Assembly: GCA_903884505.1 (NCBI GenBank)
Contig: CAISET010000030.1
Span: forward strand, 29,701-93,700
Length of the DNA: 64,000 bases
DNA from: an uncultured Candidatus Micrarchaeota archaeon
GTDB taxonomy: Archaea > Micrarchaeota > Micrarchaeia > Burarchaeales > Fermentimicrarchaeaceae
Direction of reading: 5' to 3'
Shown here: positions 43,671-60,908 of the stretch, piece after piece
Layout: every line of letters starts with the position of its first letter
How positions within the stretch are numbered: position 1 is the stretch's first letter
Program-made: the position numbers and the translations under genes
The notes under the pieces: generated by a model
Database searches by the model: none
What the model was told of the DNA's origin: nothing
Seen by the model: the letters and a program-made list of their open reading frames with translations, nothing else

Positions 43671-44633
43671 TTATTTCTTCCCTTTTTTCGCAGGACCGAA
43701 TTTCGCCCCACATTCAGGGCAGAATTTCGCGTCCTTTGCGATGAGCGCGCCGCATTTCACGCAAGCTTTCTGCCCGCCTCCTGCGGCTGGCTGCTGGCCC
43801 GCCTGCTGCGCCATCCCTGCGCCCATGGTCGGAATCATCGCGATTCCTGCGCCGAACGCAGCGCCGCCTCCGCCGCCTTTCGCGAGCTCGCGGCTGCTCT
43901 GCACCATCATGTCCTTCGTCAGGACCATCTCGCTGCGCGCGCCGCTCTTGATGTAGAATAGCCGCTCCTGCCACTCTTTCCAGGTAGCCTCATCCTCTGG
44001 CCTCAGGCTAACTCCTGAAATCTTCAGGTCAATCAGCCCGATTCCGAACCTTGAGAGCTCCTCACCAATCTTGCTCTTCACTTCCGCGCTCGTCTCATCG
44101 AGCTTCGTGTAAATCTCGTCGAACGGGAAGCCCGCGAGCGTGTCCATGAACTTCTCCAGGAAGAACCCGTTCAGGTAGTCGCGGATTTCCTGCGCGCCAT
44201 ATCCCGGCTTCGTTCCCACAACTCCGATAACGAAAAGCTTGGGGTCATCAATTTTGAACCAGAATTCACCGAAAGCCCGGATTCCGACCTGGACAAATTT
44301 CGGCACCTGCGGGTCGTTCGAGAGCTTCAGCATAACGGGCTGGGGCGTCCCGAATTTCCCCTGCGCCTTCCGTACAGTCACGAACACCACTTTGCACTGG
44401 AACGGCGACTTCCCGAAAACGAGCTTGAACGCCTTCGTCAGCAGCGGCAGGTTCGCAGTCGTGAGGGTGGTCCTTCCAGGCCCAATCACGTCGTATGCCT
44501 TCCCATCGCGGTAGAAGACCGCCTGCTGGCTCTCGTCAACTATCAATTGCGAGCCCCACTGGAACTCCGTCCCCGGGTAGGTGTAGACTATCTCGTCGTC
44601 GGTCGTCTGGTCCCATTTGATTACATCAACCAT
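43671..44633 (-). CDS. SPFH/Band-7-family protein (Band_7_1 / T7 gp14-like) with C-terminal zinc ribbon
   Basis: 'VDESQQAVFYRDGKAYDVIGPGRTTL' and C-terminal 'CVKCGALIAKDAKFCPECGAKF'. Confidence 0.6.
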   Translation of the reverse strand: MVDVIKWDQTTDDEIVYTYPGTEFQWGSQLIVDESQQAVFYRDGKAYDVIGPGRTTLTTANLPLLTKAFKLVFGKSPFQCKVVFVTVRKAQGKFGTPQPVMLKLSNDPQVPKFVQVGIRAFGEFWFKIDDPKLFVIGVVGTKPGYGAQEIRDYLNGFFLEKFMDTLAGFPFDEIYTKLDETSAEVKSKIGEELSRFGIGLIDLKISGVSLRPEDEATWKEWQERLFYIKSGARSEMVLTKDMMVQSSRELAKGGGGGAAFGAGIAMIPTMGAGMAQQAGQQPAAGGGQKACVKCGALIAKDAKFCPECGAKFGPAKKGKK

Positions 44634-44643
44634 TCATCTCACC

Positions 44644-45177
44644 TCATTCAAGCCTCAGAAGAACATCCTTTCGCTGGTCGAACTTCTTGTCAAAATCATT
44701 CACGGCACCCTTCAGCTCCTTCACCGTTTTCGGGATGCCGGCGGAGTCGTCAGTTATTTCACTCGCAAGCCCGTCAACAATCTTGCCCATCTCATTCGCA
44801 TCCTTGAAAAGGGCCATGTCGAACTCATAGACCTCATCCAGCGCATCCTCCTTGATTTTAATTGCGCTGAAGAAGCCGGCATAGCCGTAATCGGCCATCT
44901 CCACCTTCCCGATAATCTTGTCCATCAGCGCGGTTATGGCATTCATGGCGGAATACTGCGCAGCCATCTTCGAGTCCACCATGTCCCCATAAGCAGCATC
45001 AATCTTCGAATCAACCTCTTTCAGCTGCCCTGCAAGCTTCATCCTCAGGAGCTTGTCCGCCTCCCTTCTCAGCTCCTTCTCCTTGTAGCCGGCGAACCCG
45101 GGAACCCATGTCTCGAGTTGCTCTAAAAATCGCTTGTTTCCCATTACCCTTCCCTTGACATCCTTAGGAGCGGCCAT
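44644..45177 (-). CDS. Hypothetical protein, probably co-transcribed with the SPFH protein
   Basis: 177-aa helical ORF, 10-bp spacing. Confidence 0.4.
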   Translation of the reverse strand: MAAPKDVKGRVMGNKRFLEQLETWVPGFAGYKEKELRREADKLLRMKLAGQLKEVDSKIDAAYGDMVDSKMAAQYSAMNAITALMDKIIGKVEMADYGYAGFFSAIKIKEDALDEVYEFDMALFKDANEMGKIVDGLASEITDDSAGIPKTVKELKGAVNDFDKKFDQRKDVLLRLE

Positions 45178-45224: not shown

Positions 45225-47300
45225 CTATCTTGCCTTTTTCACATCTCCCTTAATCAGTTCCCAGAGAACCGGCCTGAGCTTCTCCCCGAGCAGTTCGGAC
45301 TGCCTCGCCTCCTCGATCATGTCCCCGTCTTTCGGCTTCAGCTCTGAGTATATCGCCCCTGCGATGTTGTAAGCCATCATCGAGAGCTCGGTCATTTCGC
45401 CGCTGTATTCGGCTGGAAACGCGTCCGACTTCTTCCTGCAGACATATTCCAAGTACTCGTAATGCGATTCGTTCCTTGCAATCCTCCCGAGCTTCTCCAT
45501 GTCAATCCTCGCCATCAGCCCGGACACGGTTTTCTCCCGTTCTGCATTATTGTGCATCCCGGTGACAATCGGGGGCATGCTCGTCTCCTGCTGCGGTGCC
45601 GAAGCCTTGCCGTTTATGCGCGTGACGAAAACATGCGCGCCCTGCAGCTTCCCGTTCTGAAACACGGATTGCGGAACGCAGTAGAACTCGAGCTCCCCAT
45701 ATTTCACAAAGTAGCTGCCATTACTTCCCCGCGTTACGTTTCCGGAGAGTATGGCGCCTATAGCCTCATCCTTTGAGAGCATTTCCCTGCAGTTCTTGTT
45801 TATCTTTATCAGCAGCTTCATTTCCCTGACCTCTTTCTTCATCTCATCGGGCTCCAGCTCCAGATTCTTGAATTCCACCTTATCCCCATTCTGCTGCTGG
45901 CCCACTACATCCATACGCCGCGGCCTCAGCCTTCCGAGCTCCCTTCGGATTTTCTCCTTTGAGCCCCCGTCGTTCACAGCCACCAGCCCCTTCCCAAGCG
46001 CGTCCATTGCCCTGTATTCCTGCCCCCACTCCATGTAAATCGCCGCAGCCCCGAGCCATCCTTCCCCGTCATCGGGCCTTACCTCGGCATAGGCGATGAA
46101 ATCCTTCAGCGCTTCTTCGGGCCTTCCCATCCGCTTCCTCACCTCGCCTCTCCTCCTCAAGGCAGGCGGAAAGGCCGGGCTTGCCTTAAGAAGTTCGTTA
46201 AGCGCCATCTCAGCCTTCGGAAAGTTCCCCGCGTCCTGGTAAATTTCCGCCTTCCTCAGCCGCAGGAAAAGATATTCCGGATGCTGCGCAAGCTCCCTGT
46301 CGATGAGCAGAAGTCTCCGTTCCTTCGACTCCTCGCCATTTAGCCTATCCATCGCCTTCTTCTCATCTTCAGCAAGCCTGAAGGCAGGCACCGCATTTGG
46401 CTTCTCGCAGCCCATCTTATCCACGGCGTTCCTCTCGTTCCCGGTCAGTGTTAAGACTGGCGCCGCACTTCTCTGCAGCTCGGCAGCAGGCGCAGCTTCC
46501 GCCTTTTTTTCCGTTCTAACCCGCGCAGACTTGGGCTGGTCCATGAACCTTCCTTTAAACCAGTCTTCCATCCCCGGGACGCGCGCCAGCTCCCGTTGCA
46601 GGTCCGAGAGGAATACTTCCTTGCTCTGGGTTGATGCGCGGGAAGCTGCCACCAGCAGCATGCAGGCCCTGAACGGCTCCTCCTCCACCATCTTGTCGAA
46701 GCGCCCGTCCCCAAGCAGCCTCCTGGCAGTCTTGAGCCTCTCGACCCCGAGCGTTTCCACGGCCTCGCAAAATGATTTGAGAATGAACTGGTTGTTCAGC
46801 AGCTCCAGCTCCAGCACCCACTCCTTCCCGAAAACACCCTCTTCCACAAGCTCGCACATCACCCTTCCCTTCTTCCCGACCTTCGCCGTGCCGATCTGGA
46901 CCGCAAATGCCCAAGAGAACCATTCCCGCGTCCCCACGAAATAGTTGCTCAGCTCTTCCAGCATCTTCGGGAAAAAGACATCGGGCTGCTCCACCGGCAC
47001 CTTGTATGCCGCGTACAGGATGCTGCACATGACCGACGGTGTCTCATCCATCTCCCGCATGAAGCTCTTCTTCCCGAGGTGCTCAAGCACCTGGCCGAAC
47101 GAATGGATGCCGAGCCTGTCCGCCGATTCGCAGAACTCGGCAAAATACCTGCCGCCTTCCAGCCTTATCAGCCATTCCTTCGTGAACATTCCGTTATCAA
47201 CGAGCCCGCTAAGCATCTTGTCGTGCTTTCCGTTCCTCTTAAGAAGCCCCTGCCACGCATCCGTTTCCTTCGGCGGCTGCACCTGGTGCGGTTTGAACAC
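45225..47300 (-). CDS. TPR-repeat-containing hypothetical protein (691 aa)
   Basis: TPR-like helical repeats around 'AEIYQDAGNFPKAEMALNELLKASP...ALKDFIAYAEVRPDDGEGW'. Confidence 0.5.
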   Translation of the reverse strand: MFKPHQVQPPKETDAWQGLLKRNGKHDKMLSGLVDNGMFTKEWLIRLEGGRYFAEFCESADRLGIHSFGQVLEHLGKKSFMREMDETPSVMCSILYAAYKVPVEQPDVFFPKMLEELSNYFVGTREWFSWAFAVQIGTAKVGKKGRVMCELVEEGVFGKEWVLELELLNNQFILKSFCEAVETLGVERLKTARRLLGDGRFDKMVEEEPFRACMLLVAASRASTQSKEVFLSDLQRELARVPGMEDWFKGRFMDQPKSARVRTEKKAEAAPAAELQRSAAPVLTLTGNERNAVDKMGCEKPNAVPAFRLAEDEKKAMDRLNGEESKERRLLLIDRELAQHPEYLFLRLRKAEIYQDAGNFPKAEMALNELLKASPAFPPALRRRGEVRKRMGRPEEALKDFIAYAEVRPDDGEGWLGAAAIYMEWGQEYRAMDALGKGLVAVNDGGSKEKIRRELGRLRPRRMDVVGQQQNGDKVEFKNLELEPDEMKKEVREMKLLIKINKNCREMLSKDEAIGAILSGNVTRGSNGSYFVKYGELEFYCVPQSVFQNGKLQGAHVFVTRINGKASAPQQETSMPPIVTGMHNNAEREKTVSGLMARIDMEKLGRIARNESHYEYLEYVCRKKSDAFPAEYSGEMTELSMMAYNIAGAIYSELKPKDGDMIEEARQSELLGEKLRPVLWELIKGDVKKAR

Positions 47301-47323: not shown

Positions 47324-48511
47324 TTAATACCTTATCCTCTCGACGAACCCCTCAACCAGCCTGACTGCATTCCGCGCCCCGTTCTCCGAATCCCTTGCCA
47401 GTTCCGCAAGCTTCCCCAGCTTCCCGTTGTGCTTCCTCTCGTTCTCCCGCAATCTTCTCAGCGCGCCCCCCAGGCTCCCGATTTCATCGACCGTAAGCAT
47501 TCTCCCCAAACCCAATTTCTCATACTGCCTCGCATTGCTCTCCTGCTCGGGCTGCCCCCTGTCCGGGACAACGACCGCGGGCTTCTCGAGAAGGATTGAT
47601 TCCATCACCGATGAATGGCCGGCGGGAATAACGAGGAAATCGGCCGCAGCGGCATAGGGGAGCACCTCGGGCAGGAACCTTCTCAGCTTCAGGTTCCCGA
47701 TATCCGCATCCTTCTTCACGAAAAAGCTCGCAACCATGAACTCGAACTCGGGCATCCTCTTCGCGGCCTTCACGACCTCTCCGAGCAGCCCTCCCCTGAA
47801 CCGCTGCCCCCCGAAAGTCACCAAAACCTTCGGCTTCCCCGATTCCCATTTTGCAGGCCTTGCTTTCCTGAAGCACAACTGGTTCATCGGGCCCGTGAAA
47901 AATGTCTTCTTCCTCATCTCCATGCCCTTCGAAAGCAGGGGCAGGCAAATGGTGTTCGGCGGGCTGAAATCGGGTATGAGCACCTCATCGGAAAAGCCGT
48001 AGGGCATGGAGAGCGGCATGTCCACCAGCCGCCTCACCGCTTCCGCAGGCACCCTCGCCCTCGCAAGGATTCTCAGCGCCCTCAGCCTCCTGCTCCCCAT
48101 GACCGGCAGGCGCGAGAACTGGAATTCGCTCTGGTTGGTTACGTAGAAGGTAGGCAGCCCCGCAATCGAGCCCGCAATGACCGTTGAAAGCCTCGAATCC
48201 GAGATTACGGCATCCGCCCCCATCTGCCCTATCTTCCATCTCTCCCTCCCATAAGAGCGCATCAAATCCAGCGGAGTGTCATAGCTCTTTATGATGCTGG
48301 AGACGATGTCGAACCTTCCGCCTTTCCCGGTCATCCTTATCTCGGGGAAAGTCTCGAAGGTATTCATCCCCTCCTTCTTCATGACTTCCAGCGAATCCCC
48401 ATAACCCGCAAAAACAGCCTCGTGCCCCCTCTCCTTGAGCGCGTGGTGGAGGCCAATCATCCTGCTTGTATGCCCGAGCCCTTCACCGCAGAGAGAAATG
48501 AAGAAACGCAT
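47324..48511 (-). CDS. GT1/GT28-like glycosyltransferase (MGT/MurG-like)
   Basis: 'FFISLCGEGLGHTSRMIGL' N-terminal motif. C-terminal donor-binding region 'FGGQ...'. Confidence 0.65.
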   Translation of the reverse strand: MRFFISLCGEGLGHTSRMIGLHHALKERGHEAVFAGYGDSLEVMKKEGMNTFETFPEIRMTGKGGRFDIVSSIIKSYDTPLDLMRSYGRERWKIGQMGADAVISDSRLSTVIAGSIAGLPTFYVTNQSEFQFSRLPVMGSRRLRALRILARARVPAEAVRRLVDMPLSMPYGFSDEVLIPDFSPPNTICLPLLSKGMEMRKKTFFTGPMNQLCFRKARPAKWESGKPKVLVTFGGQRFRGGLLGEVVKAAKRMPEFEFMVASFFVKKDADIGNLKLRRFLPEVLPYAAAADFLVIPAGHSSVMESILLEKPAVVVPDRGQPEQESNARQYEKLGLGRMLTVDEIGSLGGALRRLRENERKHNGKLGKLAELARDSENGARNAVRLVEGFVERIRY

Positions 48512-48628: not shown

Positions 48629-49711
48629 CTATCTCTTCCACGCGATTGCCATTCCCGCGGCTAGCGCCAGCGCGATTCCCGGGATGCATTGCTGCGAGGG
48701 CGCAGGGGTGGGCGTCTCGATTGGAGACGGGCAGGGCGCGAAGTTGCAGTCAGGCGGAATCCTTCCCACCGCACTCCCATCCGGGCAAATCAGCGCATCG
48801 ACGGTGCAGGCAACCGGGGTTTGCGTCCCCTCAGGGGTTGGCGTAATCTCAGGAGTCTGCGTGGGTTGCGGGGTTGCGGTTGGCGCAGGCGTCGCTGTTG
48901 GGGCGAGTGTCGGAGAGCTGACTGGCGTTGGCGTGATGGCTGGCGAGGAGGTTGGCGAAGGCGTTGCTATCGGCGTAGGCGTTGGAGTCGGAGCGGGAGT
49001 CGGCGTCGCCTCTGGAGTCGGCGTTGGCGTTGCTGTTGGTGACGGAGTCGGCGTAGGCGTGGGTGTCGACAGCTCGCTAGCCCTCAGTAGGATGAACGGC
49101 TTATTAGTGCCCGTCCCTGAAGTGATATTCACGGCCCCGGAAGTGTAGACATAGCCGTCAGCACTCACACCCATTGAGCCAGTGCCAGGGGGGACGCCTG
49201 GAAACACATAATAGCCCGCGCTGTCCGTGGTGGTGCTCAGCACAGTCGAAGGCGGCACGGTTATCGCCACGTGCGCACCCTCTATTCCTGCCCCACTGCT
49301 GTTCAGCACATGGCCGTAGACGCTGCCAGAAAGGGTTTCGCCAGCCCTCAGAAGGACGAAATCCTTCCTACTACTTCCGTTCGGGGTGACGTTCACATTG
49401 TCGGAAATCACCAGATAGCCGTCCTTGCTCACGCCCATCAGGCCCATGCCTGCGGGGACATTTTGAATCCTATAAAAGCCCGTACTGTCCGTGGTGGCAT
49501 ACAGCGTCGGTCCAGATGTGTGGAGTGATACGCTCACACCTTCCACCCCAGTTCCACTGTTGTTAGTAACAGTGCCGTAGACCTGGCCCGGAAGGGGCGT
49601 TGGCGTAGGAGTTGGCGTGTTCGGGTTGAACGGAGTCGGCGTTGCGGCAAAGGCCGCTGCAGATGCCAGTACTACCAGCAGAAGAATCGGATATGCTTTC
49701 ATAACACTCAC
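48629..49711 (-). CDS. Secreted protein with two carboxypeptidase-regulatory-like domains, PT-rich linkers and C-terminal TM anchor
   Basis: Signal 'MKAYPILLLVVLASAAAFA'. 'SDSTGFYRIQNVPAG' and 'TDSAGYYVFPGVPPG'. C-terminus 'CIPGIALALAAGMAIAWKR'. Confidence 0.65.
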   Translation of the reverse strand: MSVMKAYPILLLVVLASAAAFAATPTPFNPNTPTPTPTPLPGQVYGTVTNNSGTGVEGVSVSLHTSGPTLYATTDSTGFYRIQNVPAGMGLMGVSKDGYLVISDNVNVTPNGSSRKDFVLLRAGETLSGSVYGHVLNSSGAGIEGAHVAITVPPSTVLSTTTDSAGYYVFPGVPPGTGSMGVSADGYVYTSGAVNITSGTGTNKPFILLRASELSTPTPTPTPSPTATPTPTPEATPTPAPTPTPTPIATPSPTSSPAITPTPVSSPTLAPTATPAPTATPQPTQTPEITPTPEGTQTPVACTVDALICPDGSAVGRIPPDCNFAPCPSPIETPTPAPSQQCIPGIALALAAGMAIAWKR

Positions 49712-52400: not shown

Positions 52401-52802
52401 TCATTCCACGTTTCCTTTCAGGTACTTGATGGCAAGCTCCCTGTAACGCCGTGCTTCCGTGTCATCCGGATTTATTTCAAGCGCCTTGTCGAAAGCAGCT
52501 ATTGCTTCCTCAAACCTGCCCAAATCGCCCAGAACGTTTCCCTTGCTATAATACGCATCCGAATTTCTTGGGTTTCTTTTTATCTCCTCATTAAAACATT
52601 CGATGGCGTCCTCATGGCGTCCCAGGGCACGAAGGGAGTTGCCCTTGTTTATCCGTGCAGCACTATTCGGGTTCAGTTTGAGAGCCTTATCAAAAGTTAT
52701 GATTGCCTCCTCATGCCGGTTTGCGTGCTGAAGCTCAACGCCAGTCTCGTTCAACGCAAGCGCGGCCTGGAAAGCTGTTTTCTGCGCCAGTTTCACTGCC
52801 AT
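52401..52802 (-). CDS. TPR-repeat protein (133 aa)
   Basis: Three or four TPR units ('AIECFNEEIKRNPRNSDAYYSKGNVLGDLGRFEEAIAAFDKALEINP'). Confidence 0.6.
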   Translation of the reverse strand: MAVKLAQKTAFQAALALNETGVELQHANRHEEAIITFDKALKLNPNSAARINKGNSLRALGRHEDAIECFNEEIKRNPRNSDAYYSKGNVLGDLGRFEEAIAAFDKALEINPDDTEARRYRELAIKYLKGNVE

Positions 52803-52956: not shown

Positions 52957-54363
52957 TCAGGACCAGTATTGCGATGGCAGCCCGGTCCGCTTAATCTCGT
53001 CCTGCGTCAGCAGCCCGAGCTTGTTCATCTCTCTAAGCACGCTAATGCTTCCGTTGATGGCAATGTTAAGCTCCTGGATTTCCGCTTTTTCGGCAATGTT
53101 TCTTGCAGCGCGCGCCGACATTTTCTCTGGAAATGCCGACTTAAGGAAGTCATATACTCCTTCCTGCACAAAGTTCCGAAGATCCTTTTCATTGATTTTG
53201 GCCCTTTCAACGCATCCGTTAACTATCTCGTCCCTTTCCGCCTTGCCGACAAGGCCATCCCTTGCCAGCAGCGCAATGAGCTGGACGCAGTTCTCCCTGA
53301 CATAAGTATAGCCAGCATCGTCACCGCCTGAGTGGAGCGCACTGTTCATCACATCGCGAATAAGCGTTTCAGGCATGTAGTCCTGTTTTATCATCCCTTT
53401 GCGTGCAAGTTCCAAAAGCATGCCGCTATACTTATAACGTCGGCTAGAATCGATTGTGAAACCCGAGGCCAGGGTTTGGACGAGGGCAGGACAACGTGCC
53501 TCTCCGATAAGGTTTGCCTTCACCAAAGGCTCGAGCACCTTAAACGCGTTGTACCAATCATCGGGCTTCAGCTTAGGCAGGATGGCCTGCACCAGCTCAT
53601 CAGCCTTCCCGGCCTCAATCGGGTGCGCCTCCACTGAATTTACAAAGAGCTCCAAGGCAGGTCCAGCAGTATAGGTATCGTACTCAAGCGACTTGGCTGC
53701 AATCTCAGCCAGTATTCCCCTAATCTTGGCTTCCGGTAGGATGGTGAACGTTATTCTCAAAAACGCGGCGCTTCTTTTCCTGTGATGCTCGTCTTTATCA
53801 TAGAGAGAACGAGTGAATTCGGATGGCAGCGTGCCGGAGATGTCATCCATCTTGAGCACCTTGGTTTCAACGAGCTTGCTGAACAGCGAGAGTGCATGGT
53901 CTCCGGTCACGGAGTCATAAATGCCCATGTTTCCCTCCAAGTAATTGATAAAGCCCTTCACGTGCTTGCTCTCGAATAGGCTTTTGCCAGCTAGGTCATT
54001 GAGGCACTTGAACAGGTACTTGGAAATAGGCGCGGCAGAAAGCCCCTGCATCAGCTTTTCCGATGCAATTTTCGAAGAAGCTTCATCGAGCAGGTCCTGC
54101 TTTGCCAGGGAAGAAAAAACGTTCGCAGCCTCGAAATCCCAGTCTCTATCTTTGTTGGTGATATCGAAAACAACTCCCTCAACCAAGTCCTTGGAAACCA
54201 GCGTTTTGGTCAATTTCTCTTCTTTTATCAAATTGCCTAGGGAAGTCAAAGCGTTTCCCCGTATGATCATATCCGGGTCCTTAAGGTCCAGTTCCAATAG
54301 CTTGACCTGCTGTTGCGTGCGCTTATCAGGTGCGAATCTAGTGTGCATGCATAGATTGCTCAC
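52957..54363 (-). CDS. Alpha-helical-repeat (HEAT/ARM-like) hypothetical protein
   Basis: 468 aa, helical repeat composition, no catalytic motifs. Confidence 0.4.
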   Translation of the reverse strand: MSNLCMHTRFAPDKRTQQQVKLLELDLKDPDMIIRGNALTSLGNLIKEEKLTKTLVSKDLVEGVVFDITNKDRDWDFEAANVFSSLAKQDLLDEASSKIASEKLMQGLSAAPISKYLFKCLNDLAGKSLFESKHVKGFINYLEGNMGIYDSVTGDHALSLFSKLVETKVLKMDDISGTLPSEFTRSLYDKDEHHRKRSAAFLRITFTILPEAKIRGILAEIAAKSLEYDTYTAGPALELFVNSVEAHPIEAGKADELVQAILPKLKPDDWYNAFKVLEPLVKANLIGEARCPALVQTLASGFTIDSSRRYKYSGMLLELARKGMIKQDYMPETLIRDVMNSALHSGGDDAGYTYVRENCVQLIALLARDGLVGKAERDEIVNGCVERAKINEKDLRNFVQEGVYDFLKSAFPEKMSARAARNIAEKAEIQELNIAINGSISVLREMNKLGLLTQDEIKRTGLPSQYWS

Positions 54364-54441
54364 TTCCCGAATAATAAGCTAATCCCTAAGGCGGCGGGCT
54401 GCCTTTTAAATTCTGCCCGCTTAACCTTCTTCGCCTGACTT

Positions 54442-55275
54442 GTGGCCCGGCCGGCGGCGATTTCCGATGGCCGAAGTGCGCAGGATAATGGTGTGTGGCT
54501 GATGGGGAAGATTCCGACTCTGAACTGCAGGCAGTGCGGGGCTGAGATAAAGCTGCCCGAGCAGGCGGGGCAGATAACGTGCCCATACTGCGGGACGCCC
54601 CAGGTCCTCGACACTGGAGGCCTGCTTTTCCACTATTACATGCCCCCGGGTCTGAATGCCGCCGAAGGGAAGAAGGTCCTGATGGAGTGGATGAGCCGCC
54701 CGGACAAGGCTAAGAACCTCAACCTCAAGGCAGGCATCTCGAAGTTTGAGCTCAAGTTCGCGCCAATCTGGCTCTTCAAGTTCGTGCAGGGCGGAAAGGA
54801 GGAGGTCATCCTCGAGACCGCCAACCCCGAGTTGCACTGGTGCCCGCAGAAGCTGCCGCCCGGCGAGCTGAAGTTCTTTGATGAAACGAAGGTGAAGAAC
54901 GCCGTCGAACCGTCAATCAAGGCGGATAACGCGCTGACCAGGATGGAGACAAGGCTCGGCTTCGGGGAGCAGGCAGGGCATGGCGAGGCCGTGGAGAAAG
55001 AGCTCGTCCACTTCCCGATGTACCTCGCCTCCTATGGGTTTGGCGGCACCGAGTATACCGCAGCGGTTGACGCCTCCTCGGGCGAGGTGTTCGCCACGTC
55101 CTTCCCAAGGCGGGGAGAGCACCCCTTCATACTCCTCGGCGCAGGGACGGTCGTGCTGCTTACTATCATCCATTCGCTCACGGTCTTCGGGATTTACGAT
55201 GCCACCTGCACGCTTCTCCCGATAGGGATTCTGCTCACGTTTGCCGCCGCGATGCTGGTGGCGGAGAGGTACTGA
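54442..55275 (+). CDS. Zinc-ribbon protein paralog 1 (C-terminal 2 TM); alternative start 54502
   Basis: 'CRQCGAEI...CPYCGT', 'KFAPIWLFKF', 'VHFPMYLASYGF', TM tail. Confidence 0.55.
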   Translation: MARPAAISDGRSAQDNGVWLMGKIPTLNCRQCGAEIKLPEQAGQITCPYCGTPQVLDTGGLLFHYYMPPGLNAAEGKKVLMEWMSRPDKAKNLNLKAGISKFELKFAPIWLFKFVQGGKEEVILETANPELHWCPQKLPPGELKFFDETKVKNAVEPSIKADNALTRMETRLGFGEQAGHGEAVEKELVHFPMYLASYGFGGTEYTAAVDASSGEVFATSFPRRGEHPFILLGAGTVVLLTIIHSLTVFGIYDATCTLLPIGILLTFAAAMLVAERY

Positions 55276-56231
55276 TGGCAGGAATCACCTCGCTCCTGTG
55301 CCCGTCCTGCGGCGCGCCCCTCCCAATGGAAGAGGGCGACCTGATTGCAGAATGCGCGCATTGCGGAACGAATTCCTATCTAGCGGAGGAGGAAGACTAC
55401 CCGAAGTTCATGGTGCGCAACTGCGTCGGCGCGCAGAGCGCGCGGGAGATTTGCAAGGAGTGGTGGGGCGGGCTTAACAAAGCTAGGGACATCGCAAAGG
55501 TCGCAGCCATAGACGATGTGCGGCTCGTCTACCTGCCGTTCTGGAATGTGAAGAGCAGCATCTTTGCCTGGTTCACCGGCTATACTAGGGGAAGCAAGGG
55601 TGCGATACATCCCCGTGAGGCCGTGACGGCGGACGGGATGAAATGGAACGGGCTCGCATGCAACGCCGGCGACCTGGGAGTTGAGAGCCTGCCGAGCCTC
55701 GAAGGCGATATGGAACCGTTCGACGCATCGAAGCTTGAGCCCTTTGCGATTCCCTACGCGGTGACGGAATCGCTCACGGCTGCCATTTCCGATGCAAGGA
55801 GCGCAATGATGACAAGGGTGCGAAAAGAAATCCAGATGAGCGGCATCTACCAAGAGGAATCGTATATGATTGGGAAGGGAGCAGGCATCGTGTATTACCC
55901 CGTCTGGATAGTTGACTATTCCTACAAGGGCAGACTTTACAAAGTGCTTCTCGATGGCTTCTGGGGCAGGGTGATATTCGCCAAGGCACCGGGCAGCGCG
56001 CTCTACCGCTCGGCGGTATTCACGGGCGCGGCAACAATAGGCACATTCCTGGTTCCACTTGGATTAAAGGCGCTGTCGGTCTGCACTGGAAGGAATTGCG
56101 GAGGAACGCTGGGTATTTCCCTGCTGGGGCTGGGGATATGCCTCGCGGGCTATGCCGCTTTCAGGGCGTTGAGCATAATACAGGATGGGAAGGCGATAGG
56201 CGCCACGGGCATCGAAAAGGTGAGGATATGA
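55275..56231 (+). CDS. Zinc-ribbon protein paralog 2 (C-terminal TMs); start overlaps the paralog-1 stop
   Basis: 'CPSCGAPL...CAHCGT', 'LVYLPFWNVK', 'IVYYPVWIVDYSY', TM tail. Confidence 0.6.
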   Translation: MAGITSLLCPSCGAPLPMEEGDLIAECAHCGTNSYLAEEEDYPKFMVRNCVGAQSAREICKEWWGGLNKARDIAKVAAIDDVRLVYLPFWNVKSSIFAWFTGYTRGSKGAIHPREAVTADGMKWNGLACNAGDLGVESLPSLEGDMEPFDASKLEPFAIPYAVTESLTAAISDARSAMMTRVRKEIQMSGIYQEESYMIGKGAGIVYYPVWIVDYSYKGRLYKVLLDGFWGRVIFAKAPGSALYRSAVFTGAATIGTFLVPLGLKALSVCTGRNCGGTLGISLLGLGICLAGYAAFRALSIIQDGKAIGATGIEKVRI

Positions 56232-56836
56232 AGCTTGTCCCGCTCGTATGCAGAAAGTGCAATGGAAAGTTGAACGGCAAAGGCGCACTTGCCGGGGTAG
56301 TCTGCCCTTCCTGCGGCTCCGCGTACCTGCTTGGGAAGGATGGGCTTGAGCCTGTTCCTGCGAAGTATACTGCGGATTCTGCCCCGGAGGGCGCGGACGT
56401 TGTCTATGTGCCGTTCTGGCGCGAAACTTTCGACTTCAAGATAACCAGTGAGAAATCCTCAGGCATTTTCTCGCCTAACTATGCGGGGCCGCACACCGAG
56501 CCTTACGATATGAAGATTCCGGCGTTCGAGCTGCGCGCGGAGGCGTTGCAGGGGATGGCAGAGGATTCCGTATCCTGGAGCCAGAAGCTGACGGATAAGC
56601 CGCCAGCAGGCGCCAGGTTTGCAAACATCTCGCTTTCCGAGACGGACGCGAGAAAGCTCGCCCAGTTTGTGGCCTGCAGCATCGAGGTCAAAAAGTCGGG
56701 CACAATGCAGGCGCTCTCCTATGAAACGGCCTTCCAGAAGCCGGAACTCGTGTTTCTTCCCTTCCGCTGGAAGGACAAGCAGCTCTTCGACCTGGAGGAC
56801 AGGAGCTGGACTGATGCGGTTTTGTCAATTCCCTGA
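56228..56836 (+). CDS. Zinc-ribbon protein paralog 3 (soluble); ATGA overlap with paralog 2
   Basis: 'CRKCNGKL...CPSCGS', 'VVYVPFWRETFDF', 'LVFLPFRWKDK'. Confidence 0.55.
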   Translation: MKLVPLVCRKCNGKLNGKGALAGVVCPSCGSAYLLGKDGLEPVPAKYTADSAPEGADVVYVPFWRETFDFKITSEKSSGIFSPNYAGPHTEPYDMKIPAFELRAEALQGMAEDSVSWSQKLTDKPPAGARFANISLSETDARKLAQFVACSIEVKKSGTMQALSYETAFQKPELVFLPFRWKDKQLFDLEDRSWTDAVLSIP

Positions 56837-56877
56837 GTAGGCTTTATATCCGGCGCTTCGCAAAGCCTTTTTCAGCG

Positions 56878-56968: not shown

Positions 56969-57068
56969 GAACTGAAGACTTTGCCCACAGAAAGGCGGTT
57001 TTGAAGCAAACATTTATAATATACAAATTGTTTATTATTGCGTGTTTTCTGAAAGTGTGACGCAGAGG

Positions 57069-57644
57069 ATGTTGAAGGCTGTCGAGGGCTCCCCATCAGG
57101 GATTGCCCGGCTCGACGTCTTGGAGAGCCTGGGCTTGTGCAGCCCTGCCACCCTGAAGATAACATTGAGCAGGCTCGGAAGGAGCGGGAGGATTATCCGG
57201 CTGAAGCGGGGTGTGTACTCTGCAAGCCCCATCCGTGACGCATTCGCCTCCGCGCAGGCGGTTTTCAACGGGTACGTCGGCTTTTCGGCCGCCCTCTACC
57301 TGCATAGGCTCATAAGCGAGGTGCCCTTCACTGTGGCCGTGGTCACGGGGAGGAAGTCAGGCGTGAAGCGCATCGGGAACTACGAATTCAGGGCAGTTGC
57401 CCTGGGCGGCAAGGCAGTTGGCTTTGAACGGAACGGGCCATACGTGGTATCGACCCGCGCGAAGACGTTGTTTGACTGCCTTTACCTGCCTAAATATTCG
57501 GTCGAGCAGGAGAAGCTTGTCGCGGCATTTCGGGAAGCGCGCCTTGGGGCGGAAGAGCGGCGCGAGTTCACGGGCTATGTGAAAAAGTTCGCCTCGGGGA
57601 AGACCCGCGCAAAGATGCTGAAGGCAGCAAAGCTGTTGTGGTGA
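57069..57644 (+). CDS. abiEi: AbiEi-like antitoxin / transcriptional regulator (type IV toxin-antitoxin)
   Basis: N-terminal wHTH, C-terminal AbiEi_4-like region. Alternative GTG start at 57042. AT-rich promoter catttataatatac upstream. Confidence 0.55.
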   Translation: MLKAVEGSPSGIARLDVLESLGLCSPATLKITLSRLGRSGRIIRLKRGVYSASPIRDAFASAQAVFNGYVGFSAALYLHRLISEVPFTVAVVTGRKSGVKRIGNYEFRAVALGGKAVGFERNGPYVVSTRAKTLFDCLYLPKYSVEQEKLVAAFREARLGAEERREFTGYVKKFASGKTRAKMLKAAKLLW

Positions 57645-57648
57645 TGGA

Positions 57649-58434
57649 ATGGTTGAAATCAATCTGGAGGCTTGCAGGGTGTTGGCAATACAGCACGGGC
57701 TCCCGCTGCAATTCCTTGTGAAGGAGTTCTGCGTGTTCGATGTGCTGGGCCAGGTTGTGATGTTCACGGCTCCGTCGAAACGCCTCATCTTCAAGGGTGG
57801 CACCGCGCTGAACAAAGTCTACCTGGGCGGCATGCAGCGGTTCTCCGAGGACCTGGACTTCGATTTTGATACTGAGAATATAAGCGAAGCCCGTGCGGAA
57901 GCGCAGCGAATCTCCGAGCACATCGAAGGGTATCGCATCTCGGATTTCAGAACGGTCAGGCGAACGGTGCAGTTCGATTGCGAGTATGACAGCCCGCTGG
58001 GCGGAAAGGACCACGTGCGGATTGATGTGGCTGCGAAGAGAATAATTACGGAAAAGCCTCCGCTGGTAAAGCCAGCCGTTTCTGCCTACACGCAGCGTTT
58101 CGTAACCGGATTTTACGTGTATGCTCTCGAAGACTTGGTTGCGAGGAAGCTTCACGCGCTCCAGACCCGGGGCGAAGGGAAAGACATCTATGATGCTTCC
58201 AATGCCCTTCCGCTGTGCGGCAAGATGGAGCACGCGCTCCAGAAGATGCTGGAATCGGAAAAGCGGCCGGACACTCCGACTGAGTTCATTAGAACGACCA
58301 TCAAGAAGGTTCAAGCGGCAGACCCTAAGAGGCTCCGCAACCTGGCAAACCCTTTCATCCCTGCGGGCAACCGCCCGAAGGACTGGCTCGAACTGAAAAA
58401 TGACCTCCTGCTTAGGCTCGAAAAGCTGGTATAG
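57649..58434 (+). CDS. abiEii: AbiEii-like nucleotidyltransferase toxin (DUF1814)
   Basis: 'FKGGTALNKVYL...QRFSEDLDFDF' NTase signature. 4-nt spacing from abiEi. Confidence 0.65.
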   Translation: MVEINLEACRVLAIQHGLPLQFLVKEFCVFDVLGQVVMFTAPSKRLIFKGGTALNKVYLGGMQRFSEDLDFDFDTENISEARAEAQRISEHIEGYRISDFRTVRRTVQFDCEYDSPLGGKDHVRIDVAAKRIITEKPPLVKPAVSAYTQRFVTGFYVYALEDLVARKLHALQTRGEGKDIYDASNALPLCGKMEHALQKMLESEKRPDTPTEFIRTTIKKVQAADPKRLRNLANPFIPAGNRPKDWLELKNDLLLRLEKLV

Positions 58435-58487: not shown

Positions 58488-59930
58488 GTGATTTCTGTGG
58501 TTGAACTGAAAGCTCTTGGGCCTGCGAAGTGGGAGATTCCCCACGAGGGCAAGATTCCTGTCTGGCTTTACGCGAACAAGCAGCTAGCGGAGAACATGGG
58601 GAGGGACCGGACGCTCTGGCAGGCGCAGAACGTGGCGAAGCTGCCGGGAATCATAAAGGCAAGCGAAGTGATGCCGGACGGGCACGAGGGGTATGGCTTT
58701 CCGATTGGAGGGGTAGCCGCCTTTGACATGGAAGAGGGAATCATCTCGCCCGGCGGAGTCGGTTATGACATCAACTGCGGAGTTAGGATGATTCTGACGA
58801 ATCTGACTGCCGCAGATGTAAAACCGAAAATCGGAGAGCTGATGAGCAAGCTTTTCCAGAATATTCCTTCCGGGGTCGGAAGCAAGGGGAGAATCAGGCT
58901 TACAAGGGAGGAGCTGGCTGCGCCGCTCATGGAAGGCGCGCAGTGGGCAATTGAGAAAGGGTACGGATGGAAGGAGGATTCGGAGAGAATTGAAGAGAAC
59001 GGAAGGATGGAGGGCGCGGACCCGGCCAAATGCTCGGATATGGCGATGAAAAGGGGAGCGCCGCAGTTCGGAACTCTGGGAGCGGGAAACCACTTCCTTG
59101 AAGTGCAGAAGGTGACCGAGATTCTGGACGAGAAGGTGGCGAAGGCGTTCGGAATCACGGCGAAGGACCAAGTCGTGGTGATGCTGCATTGCGGAAGCAG
59201 GGGATTCGGGCACCAGGTCTGCGACGACTATATCCGCGTGATGCTGCAGGCTTCCGAGAAGTATGGCATCCCGCTTCCTGACAAGGAGCTATGCTGCGCG
59301 CCTATCAATTCCAAGGAGGCGCAAGATTATGTGGGCGCCATGTACGCGGCAGTGAACTATGCCTTCTGCAACAGGCAGGTCATGACGCACTGGATTAGGG
59401 AGACGTTCCAGGACGTGTTCAAGAAGGCGCCGGATGCGCTCGGGATGCATGTTGTTTACGACGTCTGCCACAATATTGCGAAATTCGAGGAGCACAAGGT
59501 TGATGGCGGAGTGAAGAAGGTCTGCGTGCACAGGAAGGGCGCGACAAGGGCTTTTGCAGCGGGAAGGAAGGAGATTCCGCAAATCTACCGCAGCGTTGGG
59601 CAGCCGGTCATCATCCCAGGAAGCATGGGGACTGCAAGCTATCTTCTCGTGGGAACCGAGGGAGCGATGGTGGAAAGCTGGGGAAGCACGTGCCACGGCG
59701 CGGGAAGGACGATGAGCAGGCATGAGGCAATCCGGAGATACCCTGCGCAGATGGTTGAGGGCGAACTGGAGAAGAAGGGAATCGTTCTCAGGGCGACTGG
59801 GAAGGAGATTATTTCCGAGGAGGCGAGCGGCGCATACAAGGACGTTTCCGCAGTCGTCTCCAGCGTGCAGGAGGCAGGCCTTTCAAGGATAGTCGCAAGG
59901 GTCGAGCCGATGGGAGTCGCGAAGGGATAA
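58488..59930 (+). CDS. rtcB: RNA-splicing ligase RtcB
   Basis: 480 aa with 'GYDINCGVRM', 'GAGNHFLEVQ', 'HCGSRGFGHQV', 'STCHGAGR'. Confidence 0.9.
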   Translation: MISVVELKALGPAKWEIPHEGKIPVWLYANKQLAENMGRDRTLWQAQNVAKLPGIIKASEVMPDGHEGYGFPIGGVAAFDMEEGIISPGGVGYDINCGVRMILTNLTAADVKPKIGELMSKLFQNIPSGVGSKGRIRLTREELAAPLMEGAQWAIEKGYGWKEDSERIEENGRMEGADPAKCSDMAMKRGAPQFGTLGAGNHFLEVQKVTEILDEKVAKAFGITAKDQVVVMLHCGSRGFGHQVCDDYIRVMLQASEKYGIPLPDKELCCAPINSKEAQDYVGAMYAAVNYAFCNRQVMTHWIRETFQDVFKKAPDALGMHVVYDVCHNIAKFEEHKVDGGVKKVCVHRKGATRAFAAGRKEIPQIYRSVGQPVIIPGSMGTASYLLVGTEGAMVESWGSTCHGAGRTMSRHEAIRRYPAQMVEGELEKKGIVLRATGKEIISEEASGAYKDVSAVVSSVQEAGLSRIVARVEPMGVAKG

Positions 59931-60185: not shown

Positions 60186-60908
60186 TCAGGATGAGTATGT
60201 CACCAATTCCATGGTCGCGTTCGCTGCGGTCATCTTGACCGGCACGCTTATTGACGGAGCAACCCACACATCAGACGTGTAGCTGCCGTCCGCACCGACC
60301 ATATGGTACCTGACCGCAGGCCCGCTGTATGCCGGAACGCTGACTTGTTCGGTCCCAATGGTCGTTATGGTCGGGTTCGCGCCGCCCCCTCCGCCTCCCT
60401 GCGCAGCGCTCGGGCATTGCCCGGGTATCGTCTGCCCTGCATATACTGACTCAACCTTCACGCAGCTGCAGCCGACTCTCGCGTTCCATGTGTGCGTGAC
60501 CATCTGCACCCCACCCGTGCTTAGGGTCACGGTTTGGAGCACGGTGGCAACACCGCTCACCATCCCGCCGTCGCTGGTCGCATACTGCATGTCCATCGCG
60601 GTCCCCTGCACCGTTGTGCGGTAGGTGTAGCTCAGGCCTGCCCTGTCGCAGCCCGTCAAGCTCGCCCAGGTCGCATTGCTTCCCGGCGTGGGCGTGGCAG
60701 CCGCTGCAGTCCCTGTTGGCGCAGGCGTTGGCGTCGCGCTCGCTGCCGGAGTCGCAGTCGGCACCGGCGTCGCTGTGCTCACTGGCGTTGGCGTCTGCAC
60801 TGGTGTCGCAGTCGGCACAGGAGTCGGCGTAGCTACGCCTCCTCCGCTTATGCATCCGAAGAGCACGGCAGCCGCTATCAGCAGCACGATTATTCCTGTC
60901 AATCTCAC
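60186..60908 (-). CDS. Putative lipoprotein with PT-rich linker
   Basis: 'MRLTGIIVLLIAAAVLFGCISGGG', followed by a TPTPVPTATPV linker. Confidence 0.5.
   Translation of the reverse strand: MRLTGIIVLLIAAAVLFGCISGGGVATPTPVPTATPVQTPTPVSTATPVPTATPAASATPTPAPTGTAAAATPTPGSNATWASLTGCDRAGLSYTYRTTVQGTAMDMQYATSDGGMVSGVATVLQTVTLSTGGVQMVTHTWNARVGCSCVKVESVYAGQTIPGQCPSAAQGGGGGGANPTITTIGTEQVSVPAYSGPAVRYHMVGADGSYTSDVWVAPSISVPVKMTAANATMELVTYSS

What the first reader, a model, noticed from the sequence alone, without database searches (positions are those of the whole stretch)
54442..56836. Translationally coupled operon of three paralogous zinc-ribbon proteins sharing a (V/I)xY(L/V)PFW motif
All three proteins start with a CxxCG...CPxCG ribbon. 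Each contains one or two hydrophobic 'hhYhPFW'-type segments (KFAPIWLFKF / VHFPMYLASYGF; LVYLPFWNVK / IVYYPVWIVDYSY; VVYVPFWRETFDF / LVFLPFRWKDK). Paralogs 1 and 2 add a C-terminal pair of TM helices, while paralog 3 is soluble. Stops and starts overlap (TGATG at 55272-55276, ATGA at 56228-56231), implying stoichiometric co-expression. I cannot place the family. The architecture suggests a membrane-associated complex that may bind nucleic acid or metal.
Basis: seen in the sequence. Interest (0 to 1): 0.6.

Follow-up and report, generated by a model that had tools for sequence, protein, structure and literature searches.

The report
Triplicated YdjG/SamG-like membrane-anchor operon
The three overlapping genes are real paralogues, distant relatives of Bacillus subtilis YdjG (SamG), a zinc-ribbon membrane protein that anchors an SPFH/flotillin-like protein at the membrane. 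This is a three-subunit archaeal and Chloroflexota variant of a known but poorly understood membrane-stress module, not a new kind of system.

Summary
Three same-strand genes, A (54502-55275), B (55275-56231) and C (56228-56836), overlap at stop/start. Each opens with a C4 zinc ribbon and carries "hhYhP[FV]W" segments. A and B end in two TM helices; C has none.

Paralogy is statistically solid: A-B hhalign E 2e-30, B-C E 8e-14.

The family can be placed. A and B profiles align end to end with B. subtilis YdjG/SamG (probability 98%, E 1e-13 to 1e-15), including both motifs and the C-terminal anchor.

The A-B-C order is kept in essentially all 87 loci examined (Chloroflexota and Thermoplasmatota). 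B-C overlap occurs in 74 of 79 loci, and natural B-C fusion proteins exist.

In 25 of 26 archaeal loci the trio lies next to a Band_7_1 SPFH protein with a C-terminal zinc ribbon (the YdjI/SamI architecture) and a conserved 176-aa helical protein. The window carries that pair 10 kb upstream.

PspA and the TPM protein YdjH are absent.

Most likely function: a heteromeric, membrane-anchored cytoplasmic platform working with the SPFH protein in membrane organisation or stress. Verdict: a new variant of a known kind, of moderate interest.

The parts
54502..55275 (+). Gene A, 257 aa. It has an N-terminal C4 zinc ribbon, a YdjG-like alpha+beta core (motifs LKFAPIW and LVHFPMY) and a C-terminal two-helix TM hairpin. 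The longest ORF starts at GTG 54442.
   Evidence: The A-family profile against YdjG gives probability 97.9, E 4.5e-13 over 220 columns.
55275..56231 (+). Gene B, 318 aa. It has a zinc ribbon, a YdjG-like core (motifs LVYLPFW at 84-90 and IVYYPVW at 205-211, then 'YKVLLDGFWGRVIFAKAPG') and two TM helices. Its start overlaps the stop of A (TGATG, 55273-55277).
   Evidence: AF2 core pLDDT about 80-88. Against YdjG: probability 97.5, E 6.5e-12; BLASTP E 3e-9; probability 98.4, E 7e-15.
56228..56836 (+). Gene C, 202 aa. It is a soluble, truncated paralogue of B: ribbon, VVYVPFW, a helix and LVFLPFR. It lacks the first helix, the terminal hairpin and the TM helices. Its start overlaps the stop of B (ATGA, 56228-56231).
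   Evidence: B-C profile comparison gives probability 98.1, E 8e-14 over all of C. The C domain is fused to B in P0025, P0028, P0008 and P0009.
54404..54412 (+). TTTTAAATT, a possible archaeal TATA-like element about 90 nt upstream of the A start. This is inference only.
   Evidence: Read directly from the sequence. No tool supports it.
56840..56872 (+). Imperfect inverted repeat (GGCTTT...AAAGCC) followed by TTTTT, just after the stop of C. It is a possible operon end. This is inference only.
   Evidence: Sequence. The terminator scan did not flag it; the gap between the two arms (about 16 nt) exceeds the scan's 3-8 nt loop limit.
43671..44633 (-). SPFH protein (Band_7_1) with a low-complexity linker and a C-terminal zinc ribbon, the same architecture as B. 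subtilis YdjI/SamI. It is the likely functional partner. It sits 10 kb away on the opposite strand.
   Evidence: Pfam Band_7_1 E 2.9e-35 plus Zn_ribbon_3. BLASTP against YdjI gives E 8e-17 over the full length. A homologue is adjacent to the trio in 25 of 26 archaeal loci.
44644..45177 (-). 'H176', a 177-aa helical-bundle protein with no Pfam family that always precedes the SPFH gene. It has 438 homologues.
   Evidence: AF2 pLDDT is 77.5. It has no significant fold match and no similarity to PspA.

Best explanation
A, B and C are diverged paralogues of the YdjG/SamG family. That family has zinc ribbon(s), an uncharacterised alpha+beta core whose two long beta-hairpins carry the 'hhYhP[FV]W' strands, and a C-terminal membrane anchor.

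**Proposed mechanism**
1. The three genes are co-translated from one transcript with overlapping stops and starts.
2. A and B insert through C-terminal helical hairpins. Their ribbon and core domains face the cytoplasm.
3. C, a truncated anchorless copy of B, binds them, most likely to B.
4. The resulting hetero-oligomer is a sub-membrane docking or sensing platform. It works with a cytosolic SPFH protein that has a C-terminal zinc ribbon (YdjI/SamI-like) and with that protein's obligate 176-aa helical partner.
5. The function is membrane organisation or envelope-stress handling, as YdjG/YdjH do for YdjI and PspA in B. subtilis.

**Shown here:** homology, paralogy, conserved order and overlaps, natural fusions, and the gene-neighbourhood link to SPFH.

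**Taken from the literature:** the role of YdjG/YdjH as membrane anchor and sensor.

**Inferred:** topology, heteromer formation, the docking of SPFH, and the physiological role.
For: **Homology to YdjG.** The real B. subtilis pspA-ydjGHI operon was recovered from a metagenome contig (L089).
- The B-family profile (A1, 7 sequences) against YdjG gives probability 97.5, E 6.5e-12 over 250 columns.
- Larger A and B profiles give probability 97.9 and 98.4, E 4.5e-13 and 7e-15. YdjH and PspA controls are null.
- phmmer with YdjG against all window ORFs hits only B (1.6e-8) and A (8.3e-5).
- YdjG carries the same motifs: GMYIPFW and FYVLLPVWMVSYDY...NGQTGKVVGKPP, followed by a TM helix.

**Heteromer.**
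- The A-B-C order is kept in 74 loci, plus 4 with an extra upstream paralogue. The remaining 9 loci show only part of the set.
- B-C overlap in 74 of 79 loci.
- Natural fusions exist. P0028 has famB at 5-322 (E 2.5e-92) and famC at 410-595 (E 2.6e-44). P0025 is similar. P0008 and P0009 are fusions without TM helices.

**Link to SPFH.**
- 25 of 26 archaeal loci have a Band_7_1+ZnR gene adjacent, and 22 of 26 have H176. The pair lies upstream in most loci and downstream in four.
- The window SPFH aligns with YdjI at E 8e-17, including the C-terminal ribbon.

**Literature.**
- YdjG and YdjH are required for YdjI and PspA membrane foci, and they interact (PMC8581546).
- SamI restrains SamGH signalling (bioRxiv 10.64898/2026.02.06.704340).
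- YdjG is described as two ZnRs, an uncharacterised YpeB-related domain and a TM segment (PMC11237479).

**Not mobile or defence.** There are no PADLOC or PHROG hits and no relatives in viral contigs.
Against: - In this window the SPFH/H176 pair is not adjacent. It lies 10 kb away on the opposite strand.
- In about 60 Chloroflexota loci it is never within 7 kb. The pair also stands alone in L090 and L092. Genome-level co-occurrence could not be tested.
- PspA and the TPM-domain YdjH are absent from the window and from all loci. In B. subtilis two-hybrid assays YdjH, not YdjG, was the protein that contacted YdjI and PspA.
- H176 shows no similarity to PspA or ESCRT-III in sequence or fold.
- No complex prediction or experiment was possible.
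- The B model is of moderate quality only (pLDDT 69 overall) and has no significant PDB fold match.
Confidence: 0.6

Rival explanations
1. The trio is a self-contained membrane-tethered sensor or signalling complex. It resembles the SamGH 'signalling' activity, and its function does not depend on the SPFH protein. The archaeal adjacency would then reflect regulation or shared ancestry rather than a physical partnership.
For: The trio is unlinked from SPFH/H176 in the window and in all Chloroflexota loci. The H176-SPFH pair occurs alone elsewhere. In B. subtilis, SamGH is proposed to signal while SamI only restrains it (bioRxiv 10.64898/2026.02.06.704340).
Against: 25 of 26 archaeal loci keep the adjacency, with the pair upstream in most and downstream in four. 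The same pairing of a YdjG-like gene with a Band_7_1+ZnR gene occurs in the distant Firmicutes operon. None of the three proteins has an output domain such as a kinase or HTH.
Confidence: 0.2
2. The five genes (H176, SPFH, A, B, C) form a membrane-remodelling or repair machine. H176 would be a non-ESCRT-III analogue of PspA that is recruited by SPFH and the trio.
For: H176 immediately precedes the SPFH gene in the window and in every homologous locus checked, much as pspA opens the pspA-ydjGHI operon. It is a conserved, highly charged helical bundle with 438 homologues and no family assignment. PspA is absent.
Against: H176 has no detectable similarity to PspA, Vipp1 or ESCRT-III. hhalign gives probability 0.2 and the best Foldseek hit is IncA at E 0.07. 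The model is a compact bundle rather than an ESCRT-III hairpin. There are no functional data.
Confidence: 0.12
3. The proteins are membrane-tethered nucleic-acid-binding or transcription-factor-like proteins, with the zinc ribbon acting as a DNA/RNA-binding module.
For: There are sub-threshold matches to TFIIB, RpoP and LysW-type ribbons. The YdjG ribbon matches Pfam Zn_Ribbon_TF.
Against: All ribbon hits for A, B and C fall below the curated cut-offs. No HTH, cyclin or other nucleic-acid-binding domain is present. The conserved residues outside the ribbon are mostly aromatic or glycine, and the motifs sit inside beta-strands of the model. Ribbons in this context, including the one on YdjI, are more simply read as protein-protein modules.
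Confidence: 0.04
4. The trio belongs to a mobile or anti-phage defence island.
For: An AbiEi/AbiEii pair lies immediately downstream in the window. In Chloroflexota a PLD-family lipoprotein and a HerA-like ATPase follow the trio in 28 and 19 of 60 loci. Both give generic DrmC/HerA matches in PADLOC.
Against: AbiE is absent from every homologous locus. A, B, C, SPFH and H176 have no PADLOC or PHROG hits. No relatives are found in 2.9 million viral contigs. The trio sits among housekeeping genes, with stable synteny within each phylum.
Confidence: 0.04

Closest known systems
[quoted passage not shown]
   Same: - N-terminal C4 zinc ribbon.
- Colinear alpha+beta core with both 'hhYhP[FV]W' strands and the 'xxDGxTGxVxGxxP' hairpin.
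- C-terminal membrane anchor.
- Encoded with a Band_7_1 SPFH protein that itself ends in a zinc ribbon.
   Different: - One ribbon rather than two.
- A two-helix hairpin anchor rather than a single TM helix.
- The gene is triplicated into a fixed A-B-C set, including an anchorless truncated copy.
- No PspA and no TPM-domain YdjH partner.
- A 176-aa helical protein accompanies SPFH instead.
- Found in Thermoplasmatota-type archaea and Chloroflexota rather than Firmicutes.
- Only about 21-22% identity.
'D-type' YdjG-like proteins (TPR + two zinc ribbons + core + one TM), such as the L001 468-aa protein and P0010
   Same: They share the same core domain (famB HMM E 6e-51 for L001_D). They lie directly upstream of A-B-C in a few Chloroflexota loci.
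   Different: They are much closer to YdjG (phmmer E 1e-24 to 1e-26). They have two ribbons and a single TM helix. The window has none.
B. subtilis YdjI/SamI (SPFH Band_7_1 with a C-terminal zinc ribbon)
   Same: The window protein at 43671-44633 has the same architecture and aligns over its full length at E 8e-17. It is the predicted partner of the trio.
   Different: It is not part of the reported finding. In the window it is 10 kb away. It is paired with H176 rather than with PspA.
PepSY/YpeB-like and NTF2-like domains, the relationship proposed for the YdjG core in PMC11237479
   Same: A helix packed on an antiparallel hairpin that ends in a 'Y.V.vDg.tG.v' type strand (and the sequence).
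   Different: There is no Pfam PepSY hit at E <= 1 and no significant Foldseek hit in the PDB. The relationship remains unverified here.

Membership tests
YdjG/SamG-like family (no Pfam or NCBIfam model) | N-terminal C4 (CxxC...CxxC) zinc ribbon(s) | tested here: met
   A, B and C each have one CxxC-x14-CxxC ribbon. YdjG has two. The ribbon of A, B and C aligns with the second ribbon of YdjG.
YdjG/SamG-like family (no Pfam or NCBIfam model) | Core domain colinear with YdjG residues about 52-336, including both 'YhP[FV]W' strands | tested here: met
   A and B are met. hhalign gives probability 97.5-98.4, E 6.5e-12 to 7e-15 over 220-253 columns, and controls are null. C aligns with YdjG only over the ribbon, but it aligns with B over its whole length at E 8e-14.
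YdjG/SamG-like family (no Pfam or NCBIfam model) | C-terminal transmembrane anchor | tested here: met
   A and B have two predicted TM helices each, where YdjG has one. C has none, so C fails this feature and is best called a truncated derivative.
pspA-ydjGHI (samGHI)-type system | Encoded together with a Band_7_1 SPFH protein carrying a C-terminal zinc ribbon | tested here: inconclusive
   Met in 25 of 26 archaeal homologous loci. In the window the SPFH gene is present but lies 10 kb away on the other strand. In Chloroflexota loci it is absent within 7 kb.
pspA-ydjGHI (samGHI)-type system | PspA (ESCRT-III superfamily) and TPM-domain YdjH encoded in the operon | tested here: not met
   phmmer with B. 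subtilis PspA and YdjH finds nothing in the window or in any of the 87 loci. H176 is not PspA-like.
pspA-ydjGHI (samGHI)-type system | Membrane recruitment of the SPFH protein by the YdjG/YdjH membrane proteins | not testable with these tools
   Known only from B. subtilis experiments (PMC8581546). It needs localisation or interaction assays.
PepSY/YpeB-like or NTF2-like fold | Recognisable sequence or fold similarity of the core domain | tested here: inconclusive
TFIIB-type zinc-ribbon transcription factors | Zn_Ribbon_TF above threshold plus cyclin or HTH domains | tested here: not met
   Ribbon hits are all below the curated cut-offs and no further domains are present.

The most novel reading that the evidence does not exclude
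The ancient, portable core of this membrane system may not be PspA/ESCRT-III. It may instead be the pair 'YdjG-like anchor + SPFH-ZnR'. In Thermoplasmatota-type archaea and Chloroflexota the anchor has expanded into an obligate A-B-C hetero-oligomer. There the effector would be a previously undescribed helical-bundle protein (H176) that takes the role PspA plays in Firmicutes. That would make it a new five-component membrane repair or remodelling machine shared between an archaeal and a bacterial phylum.
Probability: 0.15. Interest if true: 0.65.

Novelty: new variant of a known kind. Interest (0 to 1): 0.4.

Why it matters
YdjG/SamG has no Pfam or NCBIfam model, and it is known only from one Firmicute operon. 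The profile search found about 5,000 cluster representatives (at 50% identity) at E <= 1e-3.

This locus shows three things:
- The family reaches archaea.
- It can be triplicated into a fixed, translationally coupled three-subunit set.
- Its link to a zinc-ribbon SPFH protein survives where PspA and YdjH are absent.

That points to the anchor-SPFH pair as the conserved unit. It also supplies natural B-C fusions and a new obligate SPFH partner (H176) as handles for structural and genetic work on how SPFH scaffolds are tethered and regulated in prokaryotes.

Tried and rejected
- **Family libraries.** Pfam, NCBIfam, PADLOC and PHROGs scans of A, B and C gave only sub-threshold ribbon hits.
- **PDB by sequence.** Single-sequence and profile searches returned ribbons only.
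- **PDB by fold.** Foldseek on the B model found nothing significant.
- **Internal duplication of the core.** Only the 11-residue motif aligns, at probability 27.5, so this is not demonstrated.
- **H176 as PspA/ESCRT-III.** Rejected on both sequence and fold.
- **Upstream 468-aa protein.** The divergent gene at 52957-54363 (-) was considered as a counterpart of the 468-aa 'D-type' protein of L001. The family HMMs find no further paralogue in the window. Its only Pfam hit is a sub-threshold match to a proteasome-subunit family.
- **Wider alignment for genome scan.** The 66-sequence alignment was too diverse to use.
- **Organism.** Identification failed. The nearest named relative of H176 comes from a MAG labelled 'Candidatus ainarchaeum sp.'.
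- **Viral origin.** No relatives were found in viral contigs.
Full report
**1. Observation**

The region holds three consecutive + strand ORFs. Public gene calls on the same contig give products of 257, 318 and 202 aa. This fixes A at 54502-55275, B at 55275-56231 and C at 56228-56836. The longest ORF for A starts at GTG 54442, but homologues begin only 3-10 residues before the first CxxC.

The stop/start overlaps are real. ATGA lies at 56228-56231. Purine-rich Shine-Dalgarno-like stretches precede each start inside the preceding gene.

Each protein has one CxxC-x14-CxxC ribbon near the N-terminus. All quoted motif strings are present. A and B each have two C-terminal hydrophobic helices and C has none.

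**2. Paralogy**

A and B align colinearly (BLASTP E 2e-9). C looked only marginally similar in pairwise comparison. I built family alignments from 79-84 homologues recovered from related loci:
- A-B: probability 99.8, E 2e-30 over 223 columns.
- B-C: probability 98.1, E 8e-14 over 194 columns, which is all of C.
- A-C: ribbon only.

The B-C alignment shows C as a truncated copy of B. It keeps the ribbon, the first 'PFW' strand, the second helix and the second motif. It lacks the first helix, the terminal hairpin and the TM helices.

**3. Structure**

AF2 on B used a shallow 7-sequence alignment and gave pLDDT 69 overall, with about 80-88 for residues 40-240. The model shows:
- a ribbon;
- a helix (53-65) followed by a very long beta-hairpin (78-105 and 111-127);
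- a second helix (167-185) followed by a hairpin (190-217, 220-227, 233-237);
- two TM helices.

**4. Family size and distribution**

The word-indexed search with B found only 10 proteins. The exhaustive profile search was very different. It found 5,035 cluster representatives at E <= 1e-3, 1,496 at <= 1e-10 and 131 at <= 1e-30. No Pfam model covers the core in any of 66 members scanned.

A scan of one genome per GTDB species confirmed 188 loci. The 80 kept are titled Chloroflexota (Anaerolineae and related) or Thermoplasmatota-type archaea (Methanomassiliicoccales, Thermoplasmata, DHVE2). No relative was found in viral contigs.

**5. Synteny**

Across 87 loci, the same-strand order A-B-C is kept in 74. 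Four more loci have an additional upstream paralogue. The remaining nine show only part of the set; several of them sit on short contigs or at a locus end. Spacing is tight:
- B-C: median -4 nt, overlapping in 74 of 79 loci.
- A-B: median +1 nt, 30 nt or less in 73 of 81 loci.

Natural fusion proteins exist:
- P0028 has famB at 5-322 (E 2.5e-92) and famC at 410-595 (E 2.6e-44).
- P0025 is similar.
- P0008 and P0009 (P0009 is labelled Nitrospirae) are more divergent and have no TM helix between the two halves.

P0025 and P0028 could in principle be read-through artefacts at an ATGA overlap. P0008 and P0009 cannot. Together these results argue for a B-C physical association and probably an A-B-C heteromer.

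**6. Placing the family**

In locus L006 the trio is preceded by a Band_7_1 SPFH protein with C-terminal zinc ribbons. That recalled the B. subtilis pspA-ydjGHI operon. The literature describes:
- YdjG as a zinc-ribbon membrane protein;
- YdjG and YdjH as membrane proteins needed for YdjI (SPFH) and PspA foci (PMC8581546);
- the operon, renamed samGHI, with SamI restraining SamGH signalling (bioRxiv 10.64898/2026.02.06.704340).

I recovered the actual operon by searching metagenome contigs for the back-translated first ten YdjG codons, taken from a published primer. YdjG contains GMYIPFWMFD and FYVLLPVWMVSYDYERAEHIFAMNGQTGKVVGKPP followed by a TM helix.

The statistics are as follows:
- The 7-sequence B profile (A1) against YdjG gives probability 97.5, E 6.5e-12 over 250 columns.
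- BLASTP of B against YdjG gives E 3e-9, colinear.
- The larger A profile gives probability 97.9, E 4.5e-13.
- The larger B profile gives probability 98.4, E 7e-15.
- YdjH, YdjI (outside the ribbon) and PspA serve as null controls.
- phmmer with YdjG against every window ORF hits only B and A.

The extra upstream 'D-type' paralogues in a few Chloroflexota loci have TPR repeats and two ribbons. They are far closer to YdjG (E 1e-24 to 1e-26).

**7. Partners**

Clustering of neighbouring ORFs and a per-locus table give the following for archaeal loci:
- 25 of 26 have the SPFH-ZnR gene adjacent. The exception is a 2.2-kb contig.
- 22 of 26 have a conserved 176-aa protein (H176) just before the SPFH gene.
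- Most loci have the order [H176][SPFH][A][B][C]. Four have [A][B][C][H176][SPFH].

The window carries the same pair at 44644-45177 and 43671-44633 on the minus strand, 10 kb upstream of A. Its SPFH protein matches YdjI over the full length, including the terminal ribbon (E 8e-17; Pfam).

In Chloroflexota the pair is not near the trio. It exists as a stand-alone dyad, as it does in an archaeal MAG whose contig shares several neighbouring gene families with the window.

H176 has 438 homologues and no Pfam family. AF2 predicts a helical bundle at pLDDT 77.5. It resembles neither PspA nor ESCRT-III in sequence or fold. PspA and TPM/YdjH homologues are absent from the window and from all loci.

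**8. Mechanism**

The best-supported reading is a co-translated A-B-C hetero-oligomer.
- A and B are tail-anchored by helical hairpins. No signal peptide is evident and zinc ribbons are usually cytoplasmic, so ribbon and core most likely face the cytoplasm. This is inferred, not tested.
- C is a soluble subunit docked on B.
- The complex serves as the membrane tether or sensor for the SPFH-ZnR oligomer and H176.
- The function is membrane organisation or envelope stress, by analogy with SamG/SamH-SamI.

The extra paralogues may stand in for the missing YdjH. This is inference.

The main caveats are that linkage is loose outside Thermoplasmatota, and that in B. subtilis YdjH was the main contact for YdjI.

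The rivals are a stand-alone sensor, a remodelling machine with H176 as a PspA analogue, nucleic-acid binding, and defence. They are scored separately. The defence idea rests only on the window-specific AbiEi/AbiEii neighbour and on generic PLD/HerA neighbours in Chloroflexota.

**9. Verdict**

The family is placeable as YdjG/SamG-like, so 'unplaceable family' falls. The locus is a new three-subunit variant of a known but poorly characterised kind. The conserved association with SPFH-ZnR and H176, in the absence of PspA, is the most interesting lead.

Interest is 0.4. The most novel reading still open is a five-component archaeal/Chloroflexota membrane machine with a new effector, at probability about 0.15.

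Noticed in passing
window 57042-58434 (+): An AbiEi antitoxin-like gene (57042-57644) and an AbiEii toxin-like nucleotidyltransferase gene (57649-58434) lie directly downstream of gene C. PADLOC gives E 9.5e-29 and 4.6e-25. The pair is absent from all homologous loci, so it is probably an independent insertion.
   Followed up: partly
window 43671-45177 (-): The H176 helical-bundle gene and the Band_7_1 SPFH gene with a C-terminal zinc ribbon form a tight pair. H176 is a 438-member family with no Pfam model and no significant fold match. The same dyad stands alone in Chloroflexota (L090) and in a MAG labelled 'Candidatus ainarchaeum sp.' (L092).
   Followed up: partly
L008-L084 (Chloroflexota loci), about +1.5 to +5 kb from B: A PLD-family (PLDc_2 x2) protein with a lipoprotein-like signal follows the trio in 28 of 60 loci. 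An ~860-aa HerA/FtsK-like ATPase with a long coiled-coil tail follows it in 19 of 60. It is unclear whether these are functional partners or just lineage synteny.
   Followed up: partly
L001 3692-5098; L007 4698-6122; L013 4199-5122: A fourth 'D-type' paralogue lies upstream of A-B-C in a few Chloroflexota. In L001 it has TPR repeats, two zinc ribbons, the core domain and one TM helix. It is much closer to B. subtilis YdjG (E 1e-24 to 1e-26) than A or B are, which suggests the trio arose from a YdjG-like ancestor.
   Followed up: partly
P0025, P0028, P0008, P0009 (proteins from database searches): These single polypeptides combine a B-like and a C-like half. P0008 and P0009 (P0009 labelled Nitrospirae) lack the TM hairpin between the halves. 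P0015 and P0141 carry other N- or C-terminal extensions. One member each in the Pfam scan carries Pkinase, AAA_16 or CARDB.
   Followed up: partly
window 52957-54363 (-): A 446-468-aa protein with no family assignment is transcribed divergently from gene A. Its only Pfam hit is a sub-threshold match to a proteasome-subunit family (Proteasom_PSMB). A small TPR protein (52401-52802, -) follows it.
   Followed up: no
window 48629-49711 (-) and 60186-60908 (-): Two predicted secreted or surface proteins have long Pro/Thr-rich low-complexity linkers (PTPTPTP runs). The first ends in a hydrophobic C-terminal segment, reminiscent of archaeal surface-anchored proteins.
   Followed up: no
window 45225-47300 (-): A 691-aa TPR-containing protein lies immediately upstream, on the same strand, of the H176-SPFH pair. 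The H176 relatives examined (L092 and the P0166 contig) have a GT28-type glycosyltransferase near the pair, as the window does (47324-48511), but not this TPR protein.
   Followed up: no
window 1-64000: No Rfam family reaches its gathering score anywhere in the 64 kb. The window proteins carry no source names, so the organism stays unidentified. Gene content (for example RtcB at 58488-59930) and the nearest relatives point to an archaeon.
   Followed up: partly
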